Source: a virus. Taken from it: a stretch of DNA of 64,000 bases. The DNA lies in the IMG/VR virus record IMGVR_UViG_3300046501_000558, positions 1 to 64,000 of that record. One strand, given 5' to 3'. The notes beneath the pieces are model-generated. The model saw only the letters and a list, made by a program, of their open reading frames with translations. It was not told the DNA's origin and searched no databases. Below are positions 1 to 56,080 of this stretch, one piece after another (position 1 is the first letter of the stretch; every line of letters begins with the position of its first letter). The translations under genes were made by a program, and so were the position numbers.

Positions 1-253
1 CAACGGCTTCAGTTTCTACGGCTGCTTCAGCTGCAGGCGCAGCGGTTTCAGTTTCTACGGCTGCTTCAGCTGCAGGCGCAGCGGTTTCGGTTTCCACAGC
101 TGCTTCAGCTGCAGGCGCAGCGGTTTCGGTTTCCACAGCTGCTTCAGCTGCAGGCGCAGCGGTTTCAGTTTCTACAGCTGCTTCGACTGCAGGCGCAACG
201 GCTTCAGTTTCTACAGCTGCTTCAGCTGCAGGCGCAGCGGTTTCAGTTTCAGC
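1..253. repeat. 39-bp coding tandem repeat (~6.5 copies visible)
   Basis: Unit gcggtttcagtttctacggctgcttcagctgcaggcgca with few substitutions. Confidence 0.95.
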
Positions 254-23045: not shown

Positions 23046-23260
23046 GATTGACCTGTCTTTTCTAAGTTTTGTTCTGAACGGCGAAAAGCTAAATCATTCA
23101 TTTTCTTGATCTGCTTTGGACTAAATTTTCTTTTTTGTTTAATTCTATGGGCTTTATATAACAATCCACAAATTATGATGCGCCCAATATAGAAAAGAGC
23201 TTTAAGCCCTAGAACCCCCAACACAATTCCGAAGAAAAGAATGAATAAATTATCTTTCAT
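23042..23260 (-). CDS. Small membrane protein
   Basis: 72 aa, N-terminal TM then basic tail. Confidence 0.6.
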   Translation of the reverse strand: MKDNLFILFFGIVLGVLGLKALFYIGRIIICGLLYKAHRIKQKRKFSPKQIKKMNDLAFRRSEQNLEKTGQS

Positions 23261-23347
23261 ATATCGCCTATATACACTTATGTATAAATTATTTAATAAT
23301 TATACATTAATGCATTTAAAATCATACATAATTGTATTTTATAGCGC

Positions 23348-23510
23348 AAAAAAAAGGCTACCCATTTGAGTAGCCTTTTTCTGAATCTTTTTTAACGATG
23401 CCGTCAATGATAGCCGATTCATACTATCCATCGCACTTCAAGCCTTGCTTAATCTCAGCTTGCCCGAAGTTTTCACCGATGCAAGCTACATATGGTAATA
23501 GCTTGCAAAG
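23348..23510 (-). ncRNA. Putative structured small RNA (~165 nt)
   Basis: TTGACT-16-TATTAT promoter (23541-23514), five hairpins, loop-tail pseudoknot, intrinsic terminator GGCTAC-TCAAATGG-GTAGCC-U8; no credible ORF. Confidence 0.65.
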
Positions 23511-23642
23511 CCAATAATATACAATAATGCATATTAGTCAATACACAAATGCATAATTTTGCGATTCTGATAATTAATTTAATAGATTGCTTAATTAAAA
23601 GAATTCTAATAATTTCTCAAAAGTAACAGAGGTCCTTAGCAT

Positions 23643-24254
23643 ATGCATACTTTTTATCATGTAAGTTATTCAAAACCCTACAATCATTTTCCTGATTTTA
23701 TAGAAAACACACAAATTAAAATTGGTGAACAAATTAATCCTTTTTTTAATTATTTTTATAATACTAATGATATGCGAATTGTACCCGCAGGTGGTCAGCA
23801 GCAAGAAGTACATTACTCGACTCTCCTAGAACATTTAGCAAAGGGTGAAGGAATTATTCAATATCCCCGTCCTGACGTAATTCTCCCTTATATGTACGGA
23901 AAATTCTTGGATTTATATAATTTAAATCGAGAGATGATTTTAGAAAATATTCGTTTGCAAGATTATCCTCATATGCCTTCACGAACGAAATGCTTGTGGG
24001 TAACTACAACGCCTGAAGAATGTGCGGTTTGGTATAGTCTTTTTTCTGATGAGGTTGATAAAAAACTCATAACTTTTGAAAGTGAAAATGAACCCAAGAT
24101 TGTTGATAGTAAATTTGTACCTAATAAAAATGATTCATTAGCTGAAAAAGAAAGAAAAGCTCATGCCTATTGGTCTGGTGAAATGAGTGAATCACCTATG
24201 ATTGAACATCTTTTTGTTGGAACTGCTACAGTTAAACGTATCGAAGCAGCGTGA
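23643..24254 (+). CDS. DUF2441-family ADP-ribosyltransferase-fold protein
   Basis: FYH, E.IR...P..PSR..C, A..YW.G and distal Glu motifs; lone plus-strand AT-rich gene. Confidence 0.7.
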   Translation: MHTFYHVSYSKPYNHFPDFIENTQIKIGEQINPFFNYFYNTNDMRIVPAGGQQQEVHYSTLLEHLAKGEGIIQYPRPDVILPYMYGKFLDLYNLNREMILENIRLQDYPHMPSRTKCLWVTTTPEECAVWYSLFSDEVDKKLITFESENEPKIVDSKFVPNKNDSLAEKERKAHAYWSGEMSESPMIEHLFVGTATVKRIEAA

Positions 24255-25332: not shown

Positions 25333-25515
25333 GTGAAAAGCCAAGATTTGATCAAGATGATCGAAGCCGATGGTTGGTATCAAGTTAGAGTGAATGGTAG
25401 TCACCACCACTTCAAACACCCTTCAAAGTCTGGACTGGTAACGGTTCCACACCCAAAGAAGGATTTACCGCCAAAGACTAGAGATAGTATCTTGAAGCAG
25501 GCAGGTCTTAAATGA
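25333..25515 (+). CDS. hicA: HicA toxin
   Basis: GSHHHFKHP...VTVPHP motif, 60 aa. Confidence 0.95.
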   Translation: MKSQDLIKMIEADGWYQVRVNGSHHHFKHPSKSGLVTVPHPKKDLPPKTRDSILKQAGLK

Positions 25516-25565
25516 CCTGCCCTTTTAGGCTAGGCACTTCAAAGCCAATTTCGGAGATTAGAGAT

Positions 25566-25970
25566 ATGTATTATCCTGTTGCCATTGAAAAAGGTGATGA
25601 AAATAATGCTTTTGGTGTAACCGTACCTGATATACCAGGATGCTTCTCTGCAGGAGATACTTTTGAAGAAGCCATCAAAGGTGTTAAAGAGGCCATCGCA
25701 GGGCATTTAGAGCTACTTGCTGAAGAAGGTGATGAGATTCCTCTTGCATCGAATGCAAGTAAATTTATAGATCTTGAAGAGTACCAAGGCTATATATGGG
25801 CTGTTGTTGATATAGATGTTGGACGTTACTTAGGTAAAGCTGAAAAAATCAATGTCACTTTACCAAGTCGCCTCATTCATATGATCGATGACAAAGTAAA
25901 AGCAGATGCTCGCTTTAAAAGCAGATCAGCTTTTTTAGCGGCTAGTGCTGAGCAACTATTAAAAGCATAA
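25566..25970 (+). CDS. hicB: HicB antitoxin
   Basis: VPDIPGCFSAGDT and C-terminal RHH KINVTLP; start moved to MYYP. Confidence 0.95.
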   Translation: MYYPVAIEKGDENNAFGVTVPDIPGCFSAGDTFEEAIKGVKEAIAGHLELLAEEGDEIPLASNASKFIDLEEYQGYIWAVVDIDVGRYLGKAEKINVTLPSRLIHMIDDKVKADARFKSRSAFLAASAEQLLKA

Positions 25971-37973: not shown

Positions 37974-38201
37974 ACTTGTATTATATATACCAATTATGTA
38001 TAAAACTGTTTAATAATATGCGTTTGTGTATAAATTTACAATGCCTTTAATTCTACGTACGTACTTTTCTGTCTATATGAAAATGTGTATTAAATGCATA
38101 AAATGCGAATGTGATTATACGCTAGTGCATTTATATGGTTTTATAATGCCTTTTATAACGTATTGTATTAATTATAATTCTTTGACTTTCGAGGATACAA
38201 A

Positions 38202-38921
38202 ATGTCAAATATTAACTCTCTTCCTGATAATAAAAATTTAATAGCAAATACAATTGGCGATCGTATTGAAGCACTAATGTTAAAGAATAAAATTGATCAA
38301 GAAACATTGGCTAAAAGTGCTGGAACAACACAACCAACTATAAGCAGAATTATGTCTGGTAAGACTTCCAATAGTAGAACCATTCCTAAAATTGCGAACG
38401 TTTTAAATACAACTGTTGAGTATTTAGTCTTTGGAACGGGAATTGAATCTCTTTCTTCATCAGAAGCGTCGGAAAGTTTGCGTATAAAAGAAAATGATTT
38501 TATGCTAATTCGCATGTATGACAATGTGTCCGAGAACACAGACCTGCATACGAATAAAAATGCTGAGGACATTTTAATGTTAGAAAAGAGTTTGATACCA
38601 CTGGGGTCCTGTTCAGATGATTTACGTTATTTAAAAGTTGATGATAATTCTATGTCGCCTAAAATACCTGTGTCAGCGCGAGTATTCTTCAATATGAAAG
38701 ATACTAATGTTATTGCGGGTAAAGCATATGCTATAAAATACGGACACTTACGTGAACAAGTAAGAATTTTATATCCTCTACCAGACGGTGGTTATCGAGT
38801 TAGAGTAACTACAGAAATGTCAGAAGAATTTCCAGAAATTCAAGTTAGTAAGCAAGAAATTGATAATCAAACCTTCAAAGTTTTGGGGCGGGTATTTAGT
38901 GTTACTTCCCTATGGGAATAA
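38202..38921 (+). CDS. CI-like repressor (HTH + degenerate S24 domain)
   Basis: QETLAKSAGTTQPTISRI HTH; DNSMSP; VLGRV; terminator at 38936-38958. Confidence 0.88.
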   Translation: MSNINSLPDNKNLIANTIGDRIEALMLKNKIDQETLAKSAGTTQPTISRIMSGKTSNSRTIPKIANVLNTTVEYLVFGTGIESLSSSEASESLRIKENDFMLIRMYDNVSENTDLHTNKNAEDILMLEKSLIPLGSCSDDLRYLKVDDNSMSPKIPVSARVFFNMKDTNVIAGKAYAIKYGHLREQVRILYPLPDGGYRVRVTTEMSEEFPEIQVSKQEIDNQTFKVLGRVFSVTSLWE

Positions 38922-39121
38922 TGTTTTATGAATAGAACGGGCGAAAGCCCGTTTTTTTATGCATACAAAGGTGAATAATTAAATGCTTTTATGTATACAA
39001 ATCAAAAATATTTACAAATTGTTACGTTTATAAATGCGCATAAAAATAAAACTATTTATGCAAGCTTGCATAAAAATATGCAGTTATGTATATTTAAGAC
39101 CTGTTACTTAGGAGCTTAAAT

Positions 39122-55089: not shown

Positions 55090-55662
55090 TTAATCACAGC
55101 TTTTTAGCTCAAATGCAGCCACTAAAAAATATCTAAATATACTTTCTCTTTGGTCAAGGTTATCTGTACTTAGTAGTTGCGTTAAGGTTCCATCCATTAT
55201 ATATAACAACAATAGTGCATCATGTTTGGTTGCACTTACTTTTATCGGGCTAATCAGTTCAAAAATCTCATTTATTAACCATTTTCTATATGAAATGATA
55301 AAATTATAAGCATCAGGAAAATCATTTTTAATTTCATAAATTCCTTTGAAGAGTAAGAAATAATCACCTTTCAAGTCGGTATGAGTAAAAAATATCTTTT
55401 TTAGTTTATCAACTTCCGAAATATCATGAGTTAAATCTTTGATATGAATGATTTGTTCGGTTAGTTTTTCTTTTTGATATTTTACACATGCATTTATTAA
55501 TTTCTCTTTGGAGGGGAAATATTTATAAAGTGTCATTTTAGAAATACTTCCCTCATTTACAATTGTATTTACGCCTACATTATGAAATCCATATTGAGTG
55601 AAAAGCATGCAAGATGTTTGAAATAAATTTAATATTTTATTATTACTTATTTTGTTAGACAT
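55090..55662 (-). CDS. TetR-family regulator
   Basis: GFHNVGVNTI...SKMTLYKYFPSKEKLI; start moved to MSNK with AAGGA RBS. Confidence 0.9.
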   Translation of the reverse strand: MSNKISNNKILNLFQTSCMLFTQYGFHNVGVNTIVNEGSISKMTLYKYFPSKEKLINACVKYQKEKLTEQIIHIKDLTHDISEVDKLKKIFFTHTDLKGDYFLLFKGIYEIKNDFPDAYNFIISYRKWLINEIFELISPIKVSATKHDALLLLYIMDGTLTQLLSTDNLDQRESIFRYFLVAAFELKSCD

Positions 55663-55892
55663 ATTTAACGTCCTTGACGAACTCAATCAGTAAAAAATAC
55701 ATGTAGAAACTCGTTAGGTTGTGATTAAACACAACCCAAAATTAATATTGGATTTATTGAAATAAAACGACAAAAAGTTTGGCAACAATAAAATTGCCAA
55801 ACAAAAAATAATTACTAAGTTGTGTTGTATTTAATGATCACGGCGGTAGTTCTCCAATACTTAAATTTGGATTTCTGCCATGACATTATGAA

Positions 55893-56080
55893 ACTGGTGG
55901 CAGAACGGAAGAAGGTTGACGGACCAGTAACTCTCTACCAGCACACCCGAAGGTGTCCCTCTCCCGTCCTACCGCTACGAGAGGGGACGAGTGGTACATC
56001 TAAGACAAATCCTCAGAAAAGGATAAGCTCTGATGCGAGAGTTAAACAGTCCGTCAAGACTGCCTGGCAATGTGGCCAGA
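55893..56080 (-). ncRNA. C4-type antisense RNA plus its target hairpin (P1 c4 / P4 CI RNA-like)
   Basis: TTGACA-17-TATTCT promoter (56115-56087); CUUGACGGAC and UAACUCUC elements complementary to downstream GAGAGUUA..GUCCGUCAA. Confidence 0.75.

What the first reader, a model, noticed from the sequence alone, without database searches (positions are those of the whole stretch)
23348..23555. Stand-alone ~165-nt structured RNA with a pseudoknot, apparently under phage-repressor control
Seen: minus-strand promoter TTGACT-16-TATTAT, then hairpins UGCAAGCUA/UAGCUUGCA, UCGGU/GCUGA (A-rich internal loops), UUAAGC/GCUUGA, GAUAGU/GCUAUC and UUGACG/CGUUAA; the fourth loop UGAAUC is perfectly complementary to the later GAUUCA (pseudoknot); then a strong terminator. 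No ORF with an RBS. Operator palindromes lie between -35 and -10 (23519-23532) and at 23541-23554. Inference: a lytic-phase ncRNA I cannot assign to a known family. The AUCGGUGAA..GGCAA.GCUGAG..AAGC segment loosely recalls group I intron P4-P6. It lies divergent from a DUF2441 ART-like gene and upstream of the operon ending in the small terminase, so antitoxin, decoy or packaging roles are all open.
Basis: partly seen in the sequence, partly recalled or inferred. Interest (0 to 1): 0.8.

Follow-up and report, generated by a model that had tools for sequence, protein, structure and literature searches.

The report
Operator-controlled small RNA of phage-plasmid
A self-contained gene for a folded RNA of about 160 bases, flanked by the phage's repressor-type binding sites, sits at the head of an early operon in an Acinetobacter phage-plasmid; it fits no described RNA family and its job is still unknown.

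Summary
On the minus strand there is a near-consensus promoter (23541-23514), about 160 nt without a conserved ORF, and an intrinsic terminator (23375-23348). The fold is far more stable than shuffles (z -5.96; plus strand -2.84). No Rfam family matches, here or in relatives.

The window is part of an 81.5-kb Acinetobacter phage. Its relatives include circular plasmids.

Only four homologues were reachable. All five keep the promoter, the terminator and a 3' module: a hairpin whose loop UGAAKC pairs with GDUUCR 4-7 nt before the terminator stem. This pseudoknot pairs in 5 of 5, with U-A changed to G-U or U-G. The hairpin stem and the first hairpin also show compensatory changes. The 5' domain is not conserved.

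The palindrome ATRCA-N4-TGYAT occurs 14 times (0.52 expected). Five copies flank the RNA, so repressor control is plausible.

The DUF2441 neighbour is a lineage-specific insertion, not a partner. The group I intron resemblance is unsupported.

Two more distant plasmids carry unrelated structured RNAs in the same slot.

Function is unresolved. My best guess is an early trans-acting sRNA (0.4); a cis-acting leader with a regulated terminator is the main rival. It is a new RNA family of a known kind, supported by five sequences and no expression data.

The parts
23541..23554 (.). Operator-type palindrome O1 (ATGCATTTGTGTAT on the minus strand), abutting the -35 hexamer
   Evidence: Match to ATRCANNNNTGYAT, (14 sites against 0.52 expected).
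23519..23532 (.). Operator-type palindrome O2 in the promoter spacer, touching the -10; centre 22 bp from O1
   Evidence: position relative to the hexamers.
23514..23541 (-). Promoter P_RNA: -35 TTGACT (23541-23536), 16-bp spacer, -10 TATTAT (23519-23514)
   Evidence: 10 of 12. The hexamers are invariant in the window plus 3 homologues. L047 has TTGAAA-17-TATATT (read).
23348..23507 (-). Predicted RNA, about 160 nt. The start is inferred 6-8 nt after the -10 and the end within the U-tract; neither is measured.
   Evidence: Fold z -5.96 against -2.84 on the other strand. No conserved ORF. No Rfam match.
23480..23507 (-). Hairpin H1, 10 bp (UGCAAGCUAU/(A)UAGCUUGCA)
   Evidence: One compensatory G-C to A-U change in the 94% homologue (23502 with 23485).
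23435..23470 (-). Hairpin H2, imperfect (ACUUCGGGC..GCU/AGC..GCUUGAAGU).
   Evidence: -14.5 against -6.3 kcal/mol. No covariation is available.
23409..23428 (-). Hairpin S1 (GAUAGU/GCUAUC) with the 8-nt loop AUGAAUCG. Loop bases 23421-23416 (UGAAUC) form the 5' strand of the pseudoknot.
   Evidence: S1 cells are 100% paired and 3 of its 6 pairs change on both sides across 5 sequences.
23392..23407 (-). Hairpin H4 (UUGACG-GCAU-CGUUAA) within the pseudoknot linker. It is absent from L045 and L046. In sequence it resembles the loop-bearing hairpin of L047.
23382..23387 (-). GAUUCA, the 3' strand of the pseudoknot, 7 nt before GCUAC of the terminator stem
   Evidence: A complementary partner is present in 5 of 5 homologues at 4-7 nt from GCUAC.
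23348..23375 (-). Intrinsic terminator: stem GGCUACUC/GGGUAGCC (23375-23356), loop AAAU, U8 (23355-23348). An upstream A-tract can extend the stem.
   Evidence: Cells are 100% paired and 3 of the 8 pairs change on both sides.
23272..23337 (.). Context, not part of the RNA: three more operator-type palindromes (23324-23337, 23302-23315, 23272-23285) around a second promoter P2 (-10 TATAAT at 23304-23299, poor -35). P2 heads the small-membrane-protein / VRR-NUC operon that starts at 23260.
   Evidence: 22-bp phasing. Sequence read. P2 is my reading and did not pass the scan thresholds.

Best explanation
This is an independent gene for a structured, non-coding RNA of about 160 nt in a temperate Acinetobacter phage-plasmid.

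In the plasmid (lysogenic) state, a palindrome-binding repressor sits on two operators that overlap the promoter and keeps the gene silent. The CI-like HTH + S24 peptidase protein at 38202-38921 is the likely repressor. On induction, the strong promoter produces the RNA and the intrinsic terminator releases it as a discrete molecule.

The conserved 3' module is a hairpin, a 6-bp loop-to-tail pseudoknot and the terminator. I read it as a compact scaffold for stability and/or protein binding. The fast-diverging 5' domain would carry the specificity.

I take the RNA to act in trans early in lytic growth, on host or phage transcripts or on a protein.

Shown by sequence analysis: the gene anatomy, its conservation, the pairing pattern and the operator regulon. 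Inferred: which protein binds the operators, the timing of expression, trans action and any target.
For: Gene anatomy and fold.

Five homologues keep the promoter, the terminator and the 3' module although flanking proteins are only 49-69% identical in three of them.

Structure counts on 5 sequences: 96.8% of cells are paired and 7 pairs change on both sides. 0 of 500 shuffles reach the observed values for cells paired, for double changes and for the covariation score; 31 of 500 reach it for further pair types. With the 3' partners slid by 1-3 columns, only 28-48% of cells pair.

The pseudoknot complement is present in 5 of 5 homologues. The variants are UGAAUC/GAUUCA, UGAAUC/GGUUCG and UGAAGC/GUUUCA. 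The G-U pairs exist only on this strand.

Between the window and L044 there are 7 substitutions. Four preserve pairs, two are unpaired, and one opens a terminal pair.

Operators: 14 sites against 0.52 expected, with 5 around this gene.

The terminator is followed by a second operator-bearing promoter, so the RNA is its own transcription unit.

In L045, L046 and L047 the RNA follows a co-directional upstream gene closely, by my reading with no terminator between. This resembles sRNAs that share a terminator with an upstream operon.
Against: There are no expression data. No RNA run holding the stretch was listed.

No target was found:
- No antisense match of 12 nt or more anywhere in the phage genome.
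- A duplex scan of 111 start regions gave a best of -42.6 kcal/mol, against a mean best of -43.7 for shuffled RNAs.
- No own-specific pairing with the downstream leader or with the phage's C4 RNA.

Host genomes could not be searched. The RNA has few long single-stranded stretches and no conserved seed. Five sequences in about three lineages give little statistical power, and shared ancestry inflates the shuffle controls. The second promoter has a good -10 but a poor -35 in the window (my reading), so read-through from P_RNA may matter. That would favour the cis-acting rival.
Confidence: 0.4

Rival explanations
1. Cis-acting leader with a regulated terminator. P_RNA would be the main early promoter of the small-membrane-protein / VRR-NUC / 222-aa / 317-aa operon. 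Most transcripts stop at the terminator. A phage factor, or the RNA structure itself, lets polymerase read through and so delays expression of the operon. The factor would be N- or Q-like; RNA-only action would be put-like. The conserved pseudoknot that abuts the terminator would be the recognition or control element.
For: The conserved part of the RNA is exactly the element adjoining the terminator. The partner strand ends 4-7 nt before the stem in 5 of 5 homologues.

P_RNA scores 10 of 12, whereas P2 in the window has only a good -10 (my reading; it was not listed).

Both promoters carry the same paired operators at 22-bp spacing.

The 222-aa product has a weak, sub-threshold HTH_3 match, and its homologues are annotated as HTH regulators in two plasmids. 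Gating it could time late genes.

Unrelated RNAs with a promoter and terminator fill the same slot in L039 and L040.
Against: A second operator-bearing promoter follows the terminator in every homologue, and in L047 it has a good -35. Read-through is therefore not needed.

No conserved antiterminator alternative pairing was found by inspection.

The module is single-copy in the genome, unlike paired nut or put sites.

The linker across the pseudoknot varies from 4 to 21 nt without conserved bases. This argues against a ligand pocket.

No N- or Q-like gene was identified.
Confidence: 0.25
2. Protein-binding decoy or anti-defence RNA. The structured RNA would sequester a host protein early in infection, such as a defence nuclease, an RNA chaperone or a Cas protein. 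The variable 5' domains and the unrelated RNAs in the same slot would reflect an arms race.
For: The slot sits beside a variable accessory region that holds DUF2441, HicA/HicB and swapped segments.

Three unrelated RNA types occupy the same position.

The RNA is highly structured and lacks an obvious seed.

Viral RNAs that mimic CRISPR RNAs are described in bioRxiv 10.1101/2024.10.29.618823 (passages read).
Against: No tandem repeats lie within the RNA, so it is not ToxI-like.

Likeness to the A. baumannii I-Fb CRISPR repeat (consensus printed in PMC4338279) is marginal in the window: 3.3% of shuffles score as high. It is absent in L045, L046 and L047, where 48-99% of shuffles score as high.

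No partner protein is implied by the gene context.
Confidence: 0.15
3. Junction by-product. The terminator exists to end the upstream operon and insulate the next one, and the promoter merely adds a short, functionless transcript, as with lambda 6S RNA.
For: In L045, L046 and L047 the upstream co-directional gene ends just before the RNA promoter. DNA identity of the RNA to L044 is 94.4%, which is no higher than that of some neighbouring genes (83-96%).
Against: Compensatory changes in three helices and a maintained pseudoknot are not expected of a functionless spacer. The 3' module stays alignable where flanking proteins have fallen to 49-69% identity. A near-consensus, operator-controlled promoter is kept in 5 of 5 homologues.
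Confidence: 0.1
4. RNA antitoxin or regulator of the divergent DUF2441 gene (one of the first reader's options).
For: The two are divergent neighbours in the window and in L044.
Against: DUF2441 is absent from L045, L046 and L047, which carry the RNA. The contig of run X2 keeps the RNA but has 580 other letters in place of 23555-24135. No complementarity of 12 nt or more exists.
Confidence: 0.03
5. Self-associating packaging-type RNA, like phi29 pRNA. The loop and tail complementarity would act between molecules to build a multimer.
For: Covariation cannot tell intramolecular from intermolecular pairing. The size is similar to pRNA (recalled).
Against: No match to any Rfam family, including pRNA. 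The phage has a terminase-type packaging gene (phrog_2 match). The promoter is under early-type operator control.
Confidence: 0.02

Closest known systems
DicF of the E. coli Qin prophage, and similar prophage sRNAs under CI/Cro-type repressor control (recalled, not from a call)
   Same: A small non-coding RNA encoded by a temperate element, silent under the prophage repressor, released on derepression and thought to act in trans.
   Different: No sequence or Rfam similarity. DicF is processed from an operon transcript, whereas this RNA has its own promoter and terminator. DicF has known targets; none was found here.
Lambda PR'-6S RNA-tR' late leader and nut/put antitermination leaders (recalled)
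   Same: A strong promoter, a short terminated transcript of 100-200 nt, then an operon. The leader sequence differs between related phages.
   Different: Here the promoter carries repressor-type operators, a second promoter follows the terminator, and the RNA has a conserved pseudoknot. No Q- or N-like gene was identified, and the element is single-copy.
C4 antisense RNA of P1/P7 (Rfam RF01695, clan CL00128)
   Same: An immunity-type small RNA of phage-plasmids. This same genome carries one at 55893-55979 (51.4 bits).
   Different: The RNA at 23348-23507 does not match that family. It shows no significant pairing with the resident C4: 230 of 300 shuffled RNAs pair at least as well.
RydC, an enterobacterial Hfq-dependent sRNA folded as a pseudoknot (recalled)
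   Same: A trans-acting sRNA whose body is a small pseudoknot next to the terminator, thought to stabilise the RNA.
   Different: No homology. RydC exposes a conserved 5' seed, whereas here the 5' domain is structured and not conserved.
Class I preQ1 riboswitch architecture (recalled)
   Same: A short hairpin whose loop pairs with a tail after an A-rich linker, placed directly before a terminator.
   Different: No Rfam hit. The linker and loop residues that would form a pocket are not conserved, with linkers of 4-21 nt. The RNA is followed by another promoter rather than a regulated ORF.

Membership tests
Any Rfam 15 family | Covariance-model score at or above the family's gathering threshold | tested here: not met
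   the only gathering hit in the window is C4, at 55893-55979. (E <= 10): only sub-threshold hits, up to 26.3 bits against cut-offs of 40 or more; the three whose alignments were shown are carried by the terminator; no hit over the homologous RNAs in L045 and L047 or the slot RNAs in L039 and L040.
Group I intron (P4-P6 domain) | Match to the intron core model | tested here: not met
   No group I intron family is listed even at E <= 10.
C4 / P4-CI type immunity RNAs | Match to RF01695 or its clan, and pairing with target sites in an antirepressor leader | tested here: not met
   No match at this locus. No antisense match of 12 nt or more in the genome.
Type I toxin-antitoxin antitoxin sRNA | Base-pairing with the mRNA of an adjacent small hydrophobic toxin | tested here: not met
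   A small membrane ORF does follow (23260-23042). Duplex energies of each RNA with its own downstream leader are not better than with the leaders of other phages (5 x 5 matrix). The method is crude.
Type III toxin-antitoxin antitoxin RNA (ToxI-like) | Tandem repeats of about 36 nt next to an endoribonuclease toxin gene | tested here: not met
   No tandem repeat lies within 23348-23507. The only arrays are the 11- and 22-bp operator phasing at 23278-23343. No ToxN-like neighbour was found.
Retron msr/msd RNA | An adjacent reverse transcriptase gene | tested here: not met
   Of the 10 neighbouring products scanned, those with a Pfam match are DUF2441, VRR-NUC, a tail lysozyme and HicB. None is a reverse transcriptase.
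CRISPR-repeat mimic (Racr/Cracr type) | A stretch closely similar to the host's CRISPR repeat, including the Cas6 hairpin | tested here: not met
   Local alignment to the A. baumannii I-Fb repeat consensus printed in PMC4338279. Window score 19 against a shuffle mean of 13.7, with 3.3% of shuffles as high. In L045, L046 and L047, 48-99% of shuffles score as high. Other CRISPR types were not tested.
Trans-acting Hfq/ProQ-type sRNA | A discrete transcript, chaperone binding, and a conserved seed pairing with targets | not testable with these tools
   No RNA run was listed. No conserved seed appears among the 5 homologues.
Processive antitermination leader (nut, put, Q-utilisation) | Read-through of downstream terminators that depends on the leader element; usually two or more copies per phage for nut and put | tested here: inconclusive
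   The module is single-copy. The read-through itself cannot be tested by sequence.

The most novel reading that the evidence does not exclude
Acinetobacter phage-plasmids of this lineage keep a dedicated, repressor-controlled 'RNA slot' at the head of one early operon. In this sample at least three unrelated structured RNAs fill it: the pseudoknot family here (5 loci), the L039 type and the L040 type.

In the boldest reading the slot holds interchangeable effector RNAs. These would be either anti-defence decoys or RNA-only switches of early-to-late timing. In the pseudoknot family, a 6-bp loop-to-tail pseudoknot stacked on the terminator would be the working part.
Probability: 0.2. Interest if true: 0.7.

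Novelty: new member of a known kind. Interest (0 to 1): 0.45.

Why it matters
Phage-plasmids move genes among Acinetobacter species, and their regulation is almost unstudied. This is a clean candidate for an early regulatory RNA, with defined promoter, operators, terminator and a testable pseudoknot.

If it acts in trans, it would be one of the few repressor-gated phage sRNAs outside the enterobacteria. If it acts in cis, it would be a new kind of terminator-linked RNA element.

The finding that unrelated RNAs occupy the same slot in related elements suggests that the position, rather than the sequence, is under selection. That can be tested by swapping the RNAs. The evidence is modest: five sequences and no expression data.

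Tried and rejected
Homologue hunting
- blastn of the locus against INPHARED phages and PLSDB plasmids found nothing.
- An exact 24-mer scan of IMG/VR found one relative.
- A degenerate module pattern gave 21 stretches. Only the three already-known relatives were real by my inspection; the other 18 lacked the stem and terminator.
- Protein-anchored scans gave 34 loci with VRR-NUC in IMG/VR. In 33 of them (L005-L037) model R1 found only terminator-like matches at E > 0.05; the 34th, L004, is the relative IMGVR_UViG_3300014073_000002, searched as L044.
- The 317-aa protein profile gave 3 IMG/VR loci, 1 unrelated Pseudaminobacter locus in genome contigs and 1 metagenome locus.
- PLSDB gave 6 plasmid records by VRR-NUC and 3 by the 317-aa protein.
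- INPHARED gave 9 phage records by VRR-NUC, which I did not fetch.
- Searching the whole records of 4 plasmids and L045 with R1 added only weak hits (E 7e-4 to 8e-3), which I judged terminator-like by score and did not inspect.

Expression
- No RNA holder was listed.
- All four runs laid were DNA contigs of relatives, mostly 80-95% alike.

Targets
- No antisense match of 12 nt or more in the phage.
- The start-region duplex scan was not above shuffles.
- No own-specific pairing with the downstream leader.
- No significant pairing with C4.
- Sites complementary to the conserved loop are few and none lies at a gene start.

Other readings rejected
- Riboswitch: no conserved unpaired residues.
- Attenuator: by inspection, the S1 3' arm resembles the terminator 5' arm in the window only, not in L045-L047.
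- CRISPR-repeat mimic.
- tRNA or tmRNA.
- Tandem repeats.
- Membership of the published 'AB' phage-plasmid group. Section 20 of PMC7969092, read in full, gives about 110-kb replicons. This element is 81.5 kb, so I make no such claim. That paper's supplementary tables were not seen and could settle it.

Literature
Full-text searches on Acinetobacter phage-plasmids and sRNAs listed no paper whose title or abstract start describes this RNA. I read listings only, apart from passages of 10.1101/2024.10.29.618823 and PMC4338279 and passages plus section 20 of PMC7969092. Supplementary tables of the Cracr preprint (its Tables S2 and S3) were not seen and might list Acinetobacter elements.

Earlier scan notes gave the same operator reading. 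They are not independent evidence.
Full report
What the element is

The window is the first 64 kb of an 81,477-bp IMG/VR virus record with direct terminal repeats, rated complete. Its G+C content is 37.5%.

It encodes:
- a terminase-like protein, DNA methyltransferases, a replication-initiator-like protein, an integrase-family protein and a DNA polymerase;
- a CI-like repressor with HTH_3 and Peptidase_S24 domains at 38202-38921;
- a P1-type C4 antisense RNA at 55893-55979.

Homologues of the neighbouring VRR-NUC and 317-aa proteins are named from Acinetobacter calcoaceticus, A. oleivorans, A. nosocomialis and A. baumannii, on contigs of 81-88 kb. More distant homologues lie on complete circular Acinetobacter plasmids of 71-83 kb that also carry phage tail genes. 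The element is therefore a temperate Acinetobacter phage of the phage-plasmid kind.

Checking the observation

The minus strand carries TTGACT-16-TATTAT at 23541-23514. About 160 nt follow, and then the hairpin GGCUACUC-AAAU-GGGUAGCC with eight U.

The fold of 23512-23340(-) is -62.6 kcal/mol, against -41.7 +/- 3.5 for shuffles (z -5.96, 0 of 200). The opposite strand reaches only -40.3 (z -2.84).

The second and third are better drawn as one imperfect hairpin (-14.5 against -6.3 kcal/mol).

The only ORF, 30 aa at 23431-23339, is shifted out of frame by a 1-nt insertion in the closest relative.

Both operator palindromes match ATRCA-N4-TGYAT. That pattern occurs 14 times in the window against 0.52 expected, and 0 of 100 shuffles reach 14. 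By comparison with my ORF list, the sites lie between or at the edges of ORFs. Five of the 14 flank this RNA: two on its promoter and three on the next promoter and leader, phased at 22 bp.

Relatives and conservation

Four homologous RNAs were found:
- L004, also held as L044 (IMGVR_UViG_3300014073_000002), at 94.4% identity;
- L045 and L046, from two further IMG/VR phages;
- L047, from a metagenome contig.

A covariance model of the 3' module (R1) scored these five at 68-92 bits. Nothing else among 42 sources (310 kb) scored above 28.5 bits. The remainder were terminator-like matches, several on the reverse strand of the same terminators. Degenerate-pattern scanning of IMG/VR added no member.

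Contigs of four DNA runs hold variants that are mostly 80-95% alike. Two of those runs are labelled soil metagenome.

No Rfam family matches the window RNA or its relatives.

What is conserved is the promoter, the terminator and a 3' module:
- a 5-6-bp hairpin with an 8-nt loop, DUGAAKCG;
- a linker of 4 to 21 nt;
- a hexamer complementary to the loop, placed 4-7 nt before GCUAC of the terminator stem.

The 5' domain is not alignable between lineages. It is about 80 nt with two hairpins in the window, about 48 nt in L045 and L046, and about 60 nt in L047. All of these RNAs are nevertheless strongly structured, with z between -2.6 and -5.0.

Evidence for the fold

On the five-sequence alignment A7, the structure S1 + pseudoknot + terminator has 96.8% of cells paired and 7 pairs with changes on both sides. 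0 of 500 column shuffles reach the observed values for cells paired, double changes or the covariation score; 31 of 500 reach it for further pair types. With the partners slid by 1-3 columns, only 28-48% of cells pair.

The three unpaired cells and two gap cells of the pseudoknot helix all belong to L047. MAFFT shifted that sequence by one column. A script that locates the partner directly finds a full 6-bp complement in 5 of 5.

The pseudoknot variants are:
- UGAAUC/GAUUCA in the window and L047;
- UGAAUC/GGUUCG in L044, with two U-A pairs changed to U-G;
- UGAAGC/GUUUCA in L045 and L046, with one U-A changed to G-U on both sides.

These wobble pairs exist only if the minus strand is the RNA.

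The chance that a composition-matched linker holds such a complement is 0.06, 0.06, 0.001, 0.005 and 0.11 for the five sequences. These values are not independent, because the sequences share ancestry.

Between the window and L044, the RNA differs by 7 substitutions and one internal insertion:
- two form a compensatory G-C to A-U pair in H1;
- two are the wobble changes in the pseudoknot;
- two are unpaired;
- one opens the terminal pair of H4 (pairing assigned by hand).

One caveat concerns S1. MAFFT aligns the loop-bearing hairpin of L047 with the window's H4 rather than its S1. Part of the 'S1 covariation' may therefore compare duplicated hairpins rather than orthologous ones.

With five sequences in about three lineages, the evidence is suggestive and not conclusive.

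Context

Downstream of the terminator lies a second promoter, P2, with a TATAAT -10, a poor -35 in the window, and three operators. After it come a small membrane ORF (72 aa), VRR-NUC (160 aa), a 222-aa protein with a weak HTH signal and a 317-aa protein of unknown family. This order is kept in the homologues, except that tblastn detects the short membrane ORF only in L044.

Upstream, the window has a divergent DUF2441 gene (Pfam E 3.4e-12). That gene is present only in the window and L044. In L045 and L046 the homologue of the next gene (148 aa) ends just before the RNA promoter, and L047 likewise has a co-directional gene there. In the contig of run X2, the stretch 23555-24135 is replaced by 580 other letters, with the breakpoint at the upstream edge of the promoter region.

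The RNA therefore belongs with the downstream module. DUF2441 is an inserted accessory gene.

A conserved slot

In two more distant plasmids (A. defluvii p1_010030, L039, and A. soli pGFJ2, L040), the same position before the small-ORF/VRR-NUC operon holds a promoter, a 140-145-nt stretch and an intrinsic terminator. Their sequences are unrelated to the window RNA and fold with z -5.1 and -5.5. By my reading, their promoters carry a different repeated motif (AGAATA/TATTCT type). L041 and L042 gave no R1 match, and L041 has no such gap.

Mechanism

The RNA is a separate transcription unit under operator control, so I infer that it is made on derepression.

I favour a trans-acting early sRNA whose pseudoknot-terminator module is a stabilising or protein-binding scaffold (0.4). 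The target searches were negative or uninformative, and host genomes were out of reach.

The main rival (0.25) is a cis-acting leader. Three observations bear on it. The conserved element abuts the terminator. P_RNA is much closer to consensus than P2 in the window. And the operon may encode a regulator.

Decoy or anti-defence roles (0.15) and a functionless junction transcript (0.1) remain possible. A DUF2441 antitoxin role (0.03) and a pRNA-like role (0.02) are unlikely. CRISPR-repeat mimicry was tested against the I-Fb consensus printed in PMC4338279 and is not a family feature.

Verdict

This is a real-looking and previously undescribed RNA family. It has no Rfam match, and three full-text searches listed no paper whose title or abstract start describes it. 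In kind it is familiar: a repressor-gated sRNA or leader of a temperate phage. Its interest lies in the terminator-linked pseudoknot and in the conserved slot that is filled by unrelated RNAs.

Noticed in passing
window 55893-55979 (-): C4 antisense RNA (Rfam RF01695, 51.4 bits, full length), the P1/P7-type immunity RNA. A TetR-family gene (55090-55686) lies next to it.
   Followed up: partly
window 12295-53069 (14 sites): The palindrome ATRCA-N4-TGYAT occurs 14 times against 0.52 expected, always between or at the edges of ORFs. It looks like a dispersed repressor regulon of the kind known for P1 C1 (recalled), but palindromic. Two one-mismatch copies lie in the CI/Cro-type divergent region at 38018-38130.
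   Followed up: partly
L039:2679-2819 and L040:2497-2641: Unrelated structured RNAs (z -5.1 and -5.5), each with its own promoter and terminator, occupy the same position before the VRR-NUC operon in two Acinetobacter plasmids. Their promoters carry a different repeat (AGAATA/TATTCT type).
   Followed up: partly
window 25333-25970 (+): A HicA-sized ORF (60 aa) overlaps a HicB antitoxin gene (Pfam E 4e-45) in the accessory region upstream of the RNA. The first 119 residues of HicB are 100% identical at the edge of L044.
   Followed up: no
window 23555-24135, against the contig of run X2: The DUF2441 gene is swapped for 580 unrelated letters in a related metagenome contig. The breakpoint lies exactly at the upstream edge of the RNA promoter region, which marks an accessory-gene hot spot.
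   Followed up: partly
genome 80833-81457 and window 107-224 (-): Many copies of a roughly 39-nt unit (CTGCAGCTGAAGCAGCTG...) lie inside the ORF at the genome end and within the terminal repeat region. This would give a protein with Ala/Glu/Pro/Thr-rich 13-residue repeats.
   Followed up: no
L040:3001-3382: The VRR-NUC gene of A. soli pGFJ2 matches in two pieces in different frames, and PLSDB lists no CDS there. It is probably a frameshifted pseudogene.
   Followed up: no
L039:1372-2501: An IS3-family transposase is inserted just upstream of the slot RNA in A. defluvii p1_010030.
   Followed up: no
window 39058-39071 and 23480-23507: The operator-type site ATGCAAGCTTGCAT shares its arms (TGCAAGC/GCTTGCA) with the stem of hairpin H1 of the RNA. 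The likeness is lost in L044, so it is probably chance.
   Followed up: no
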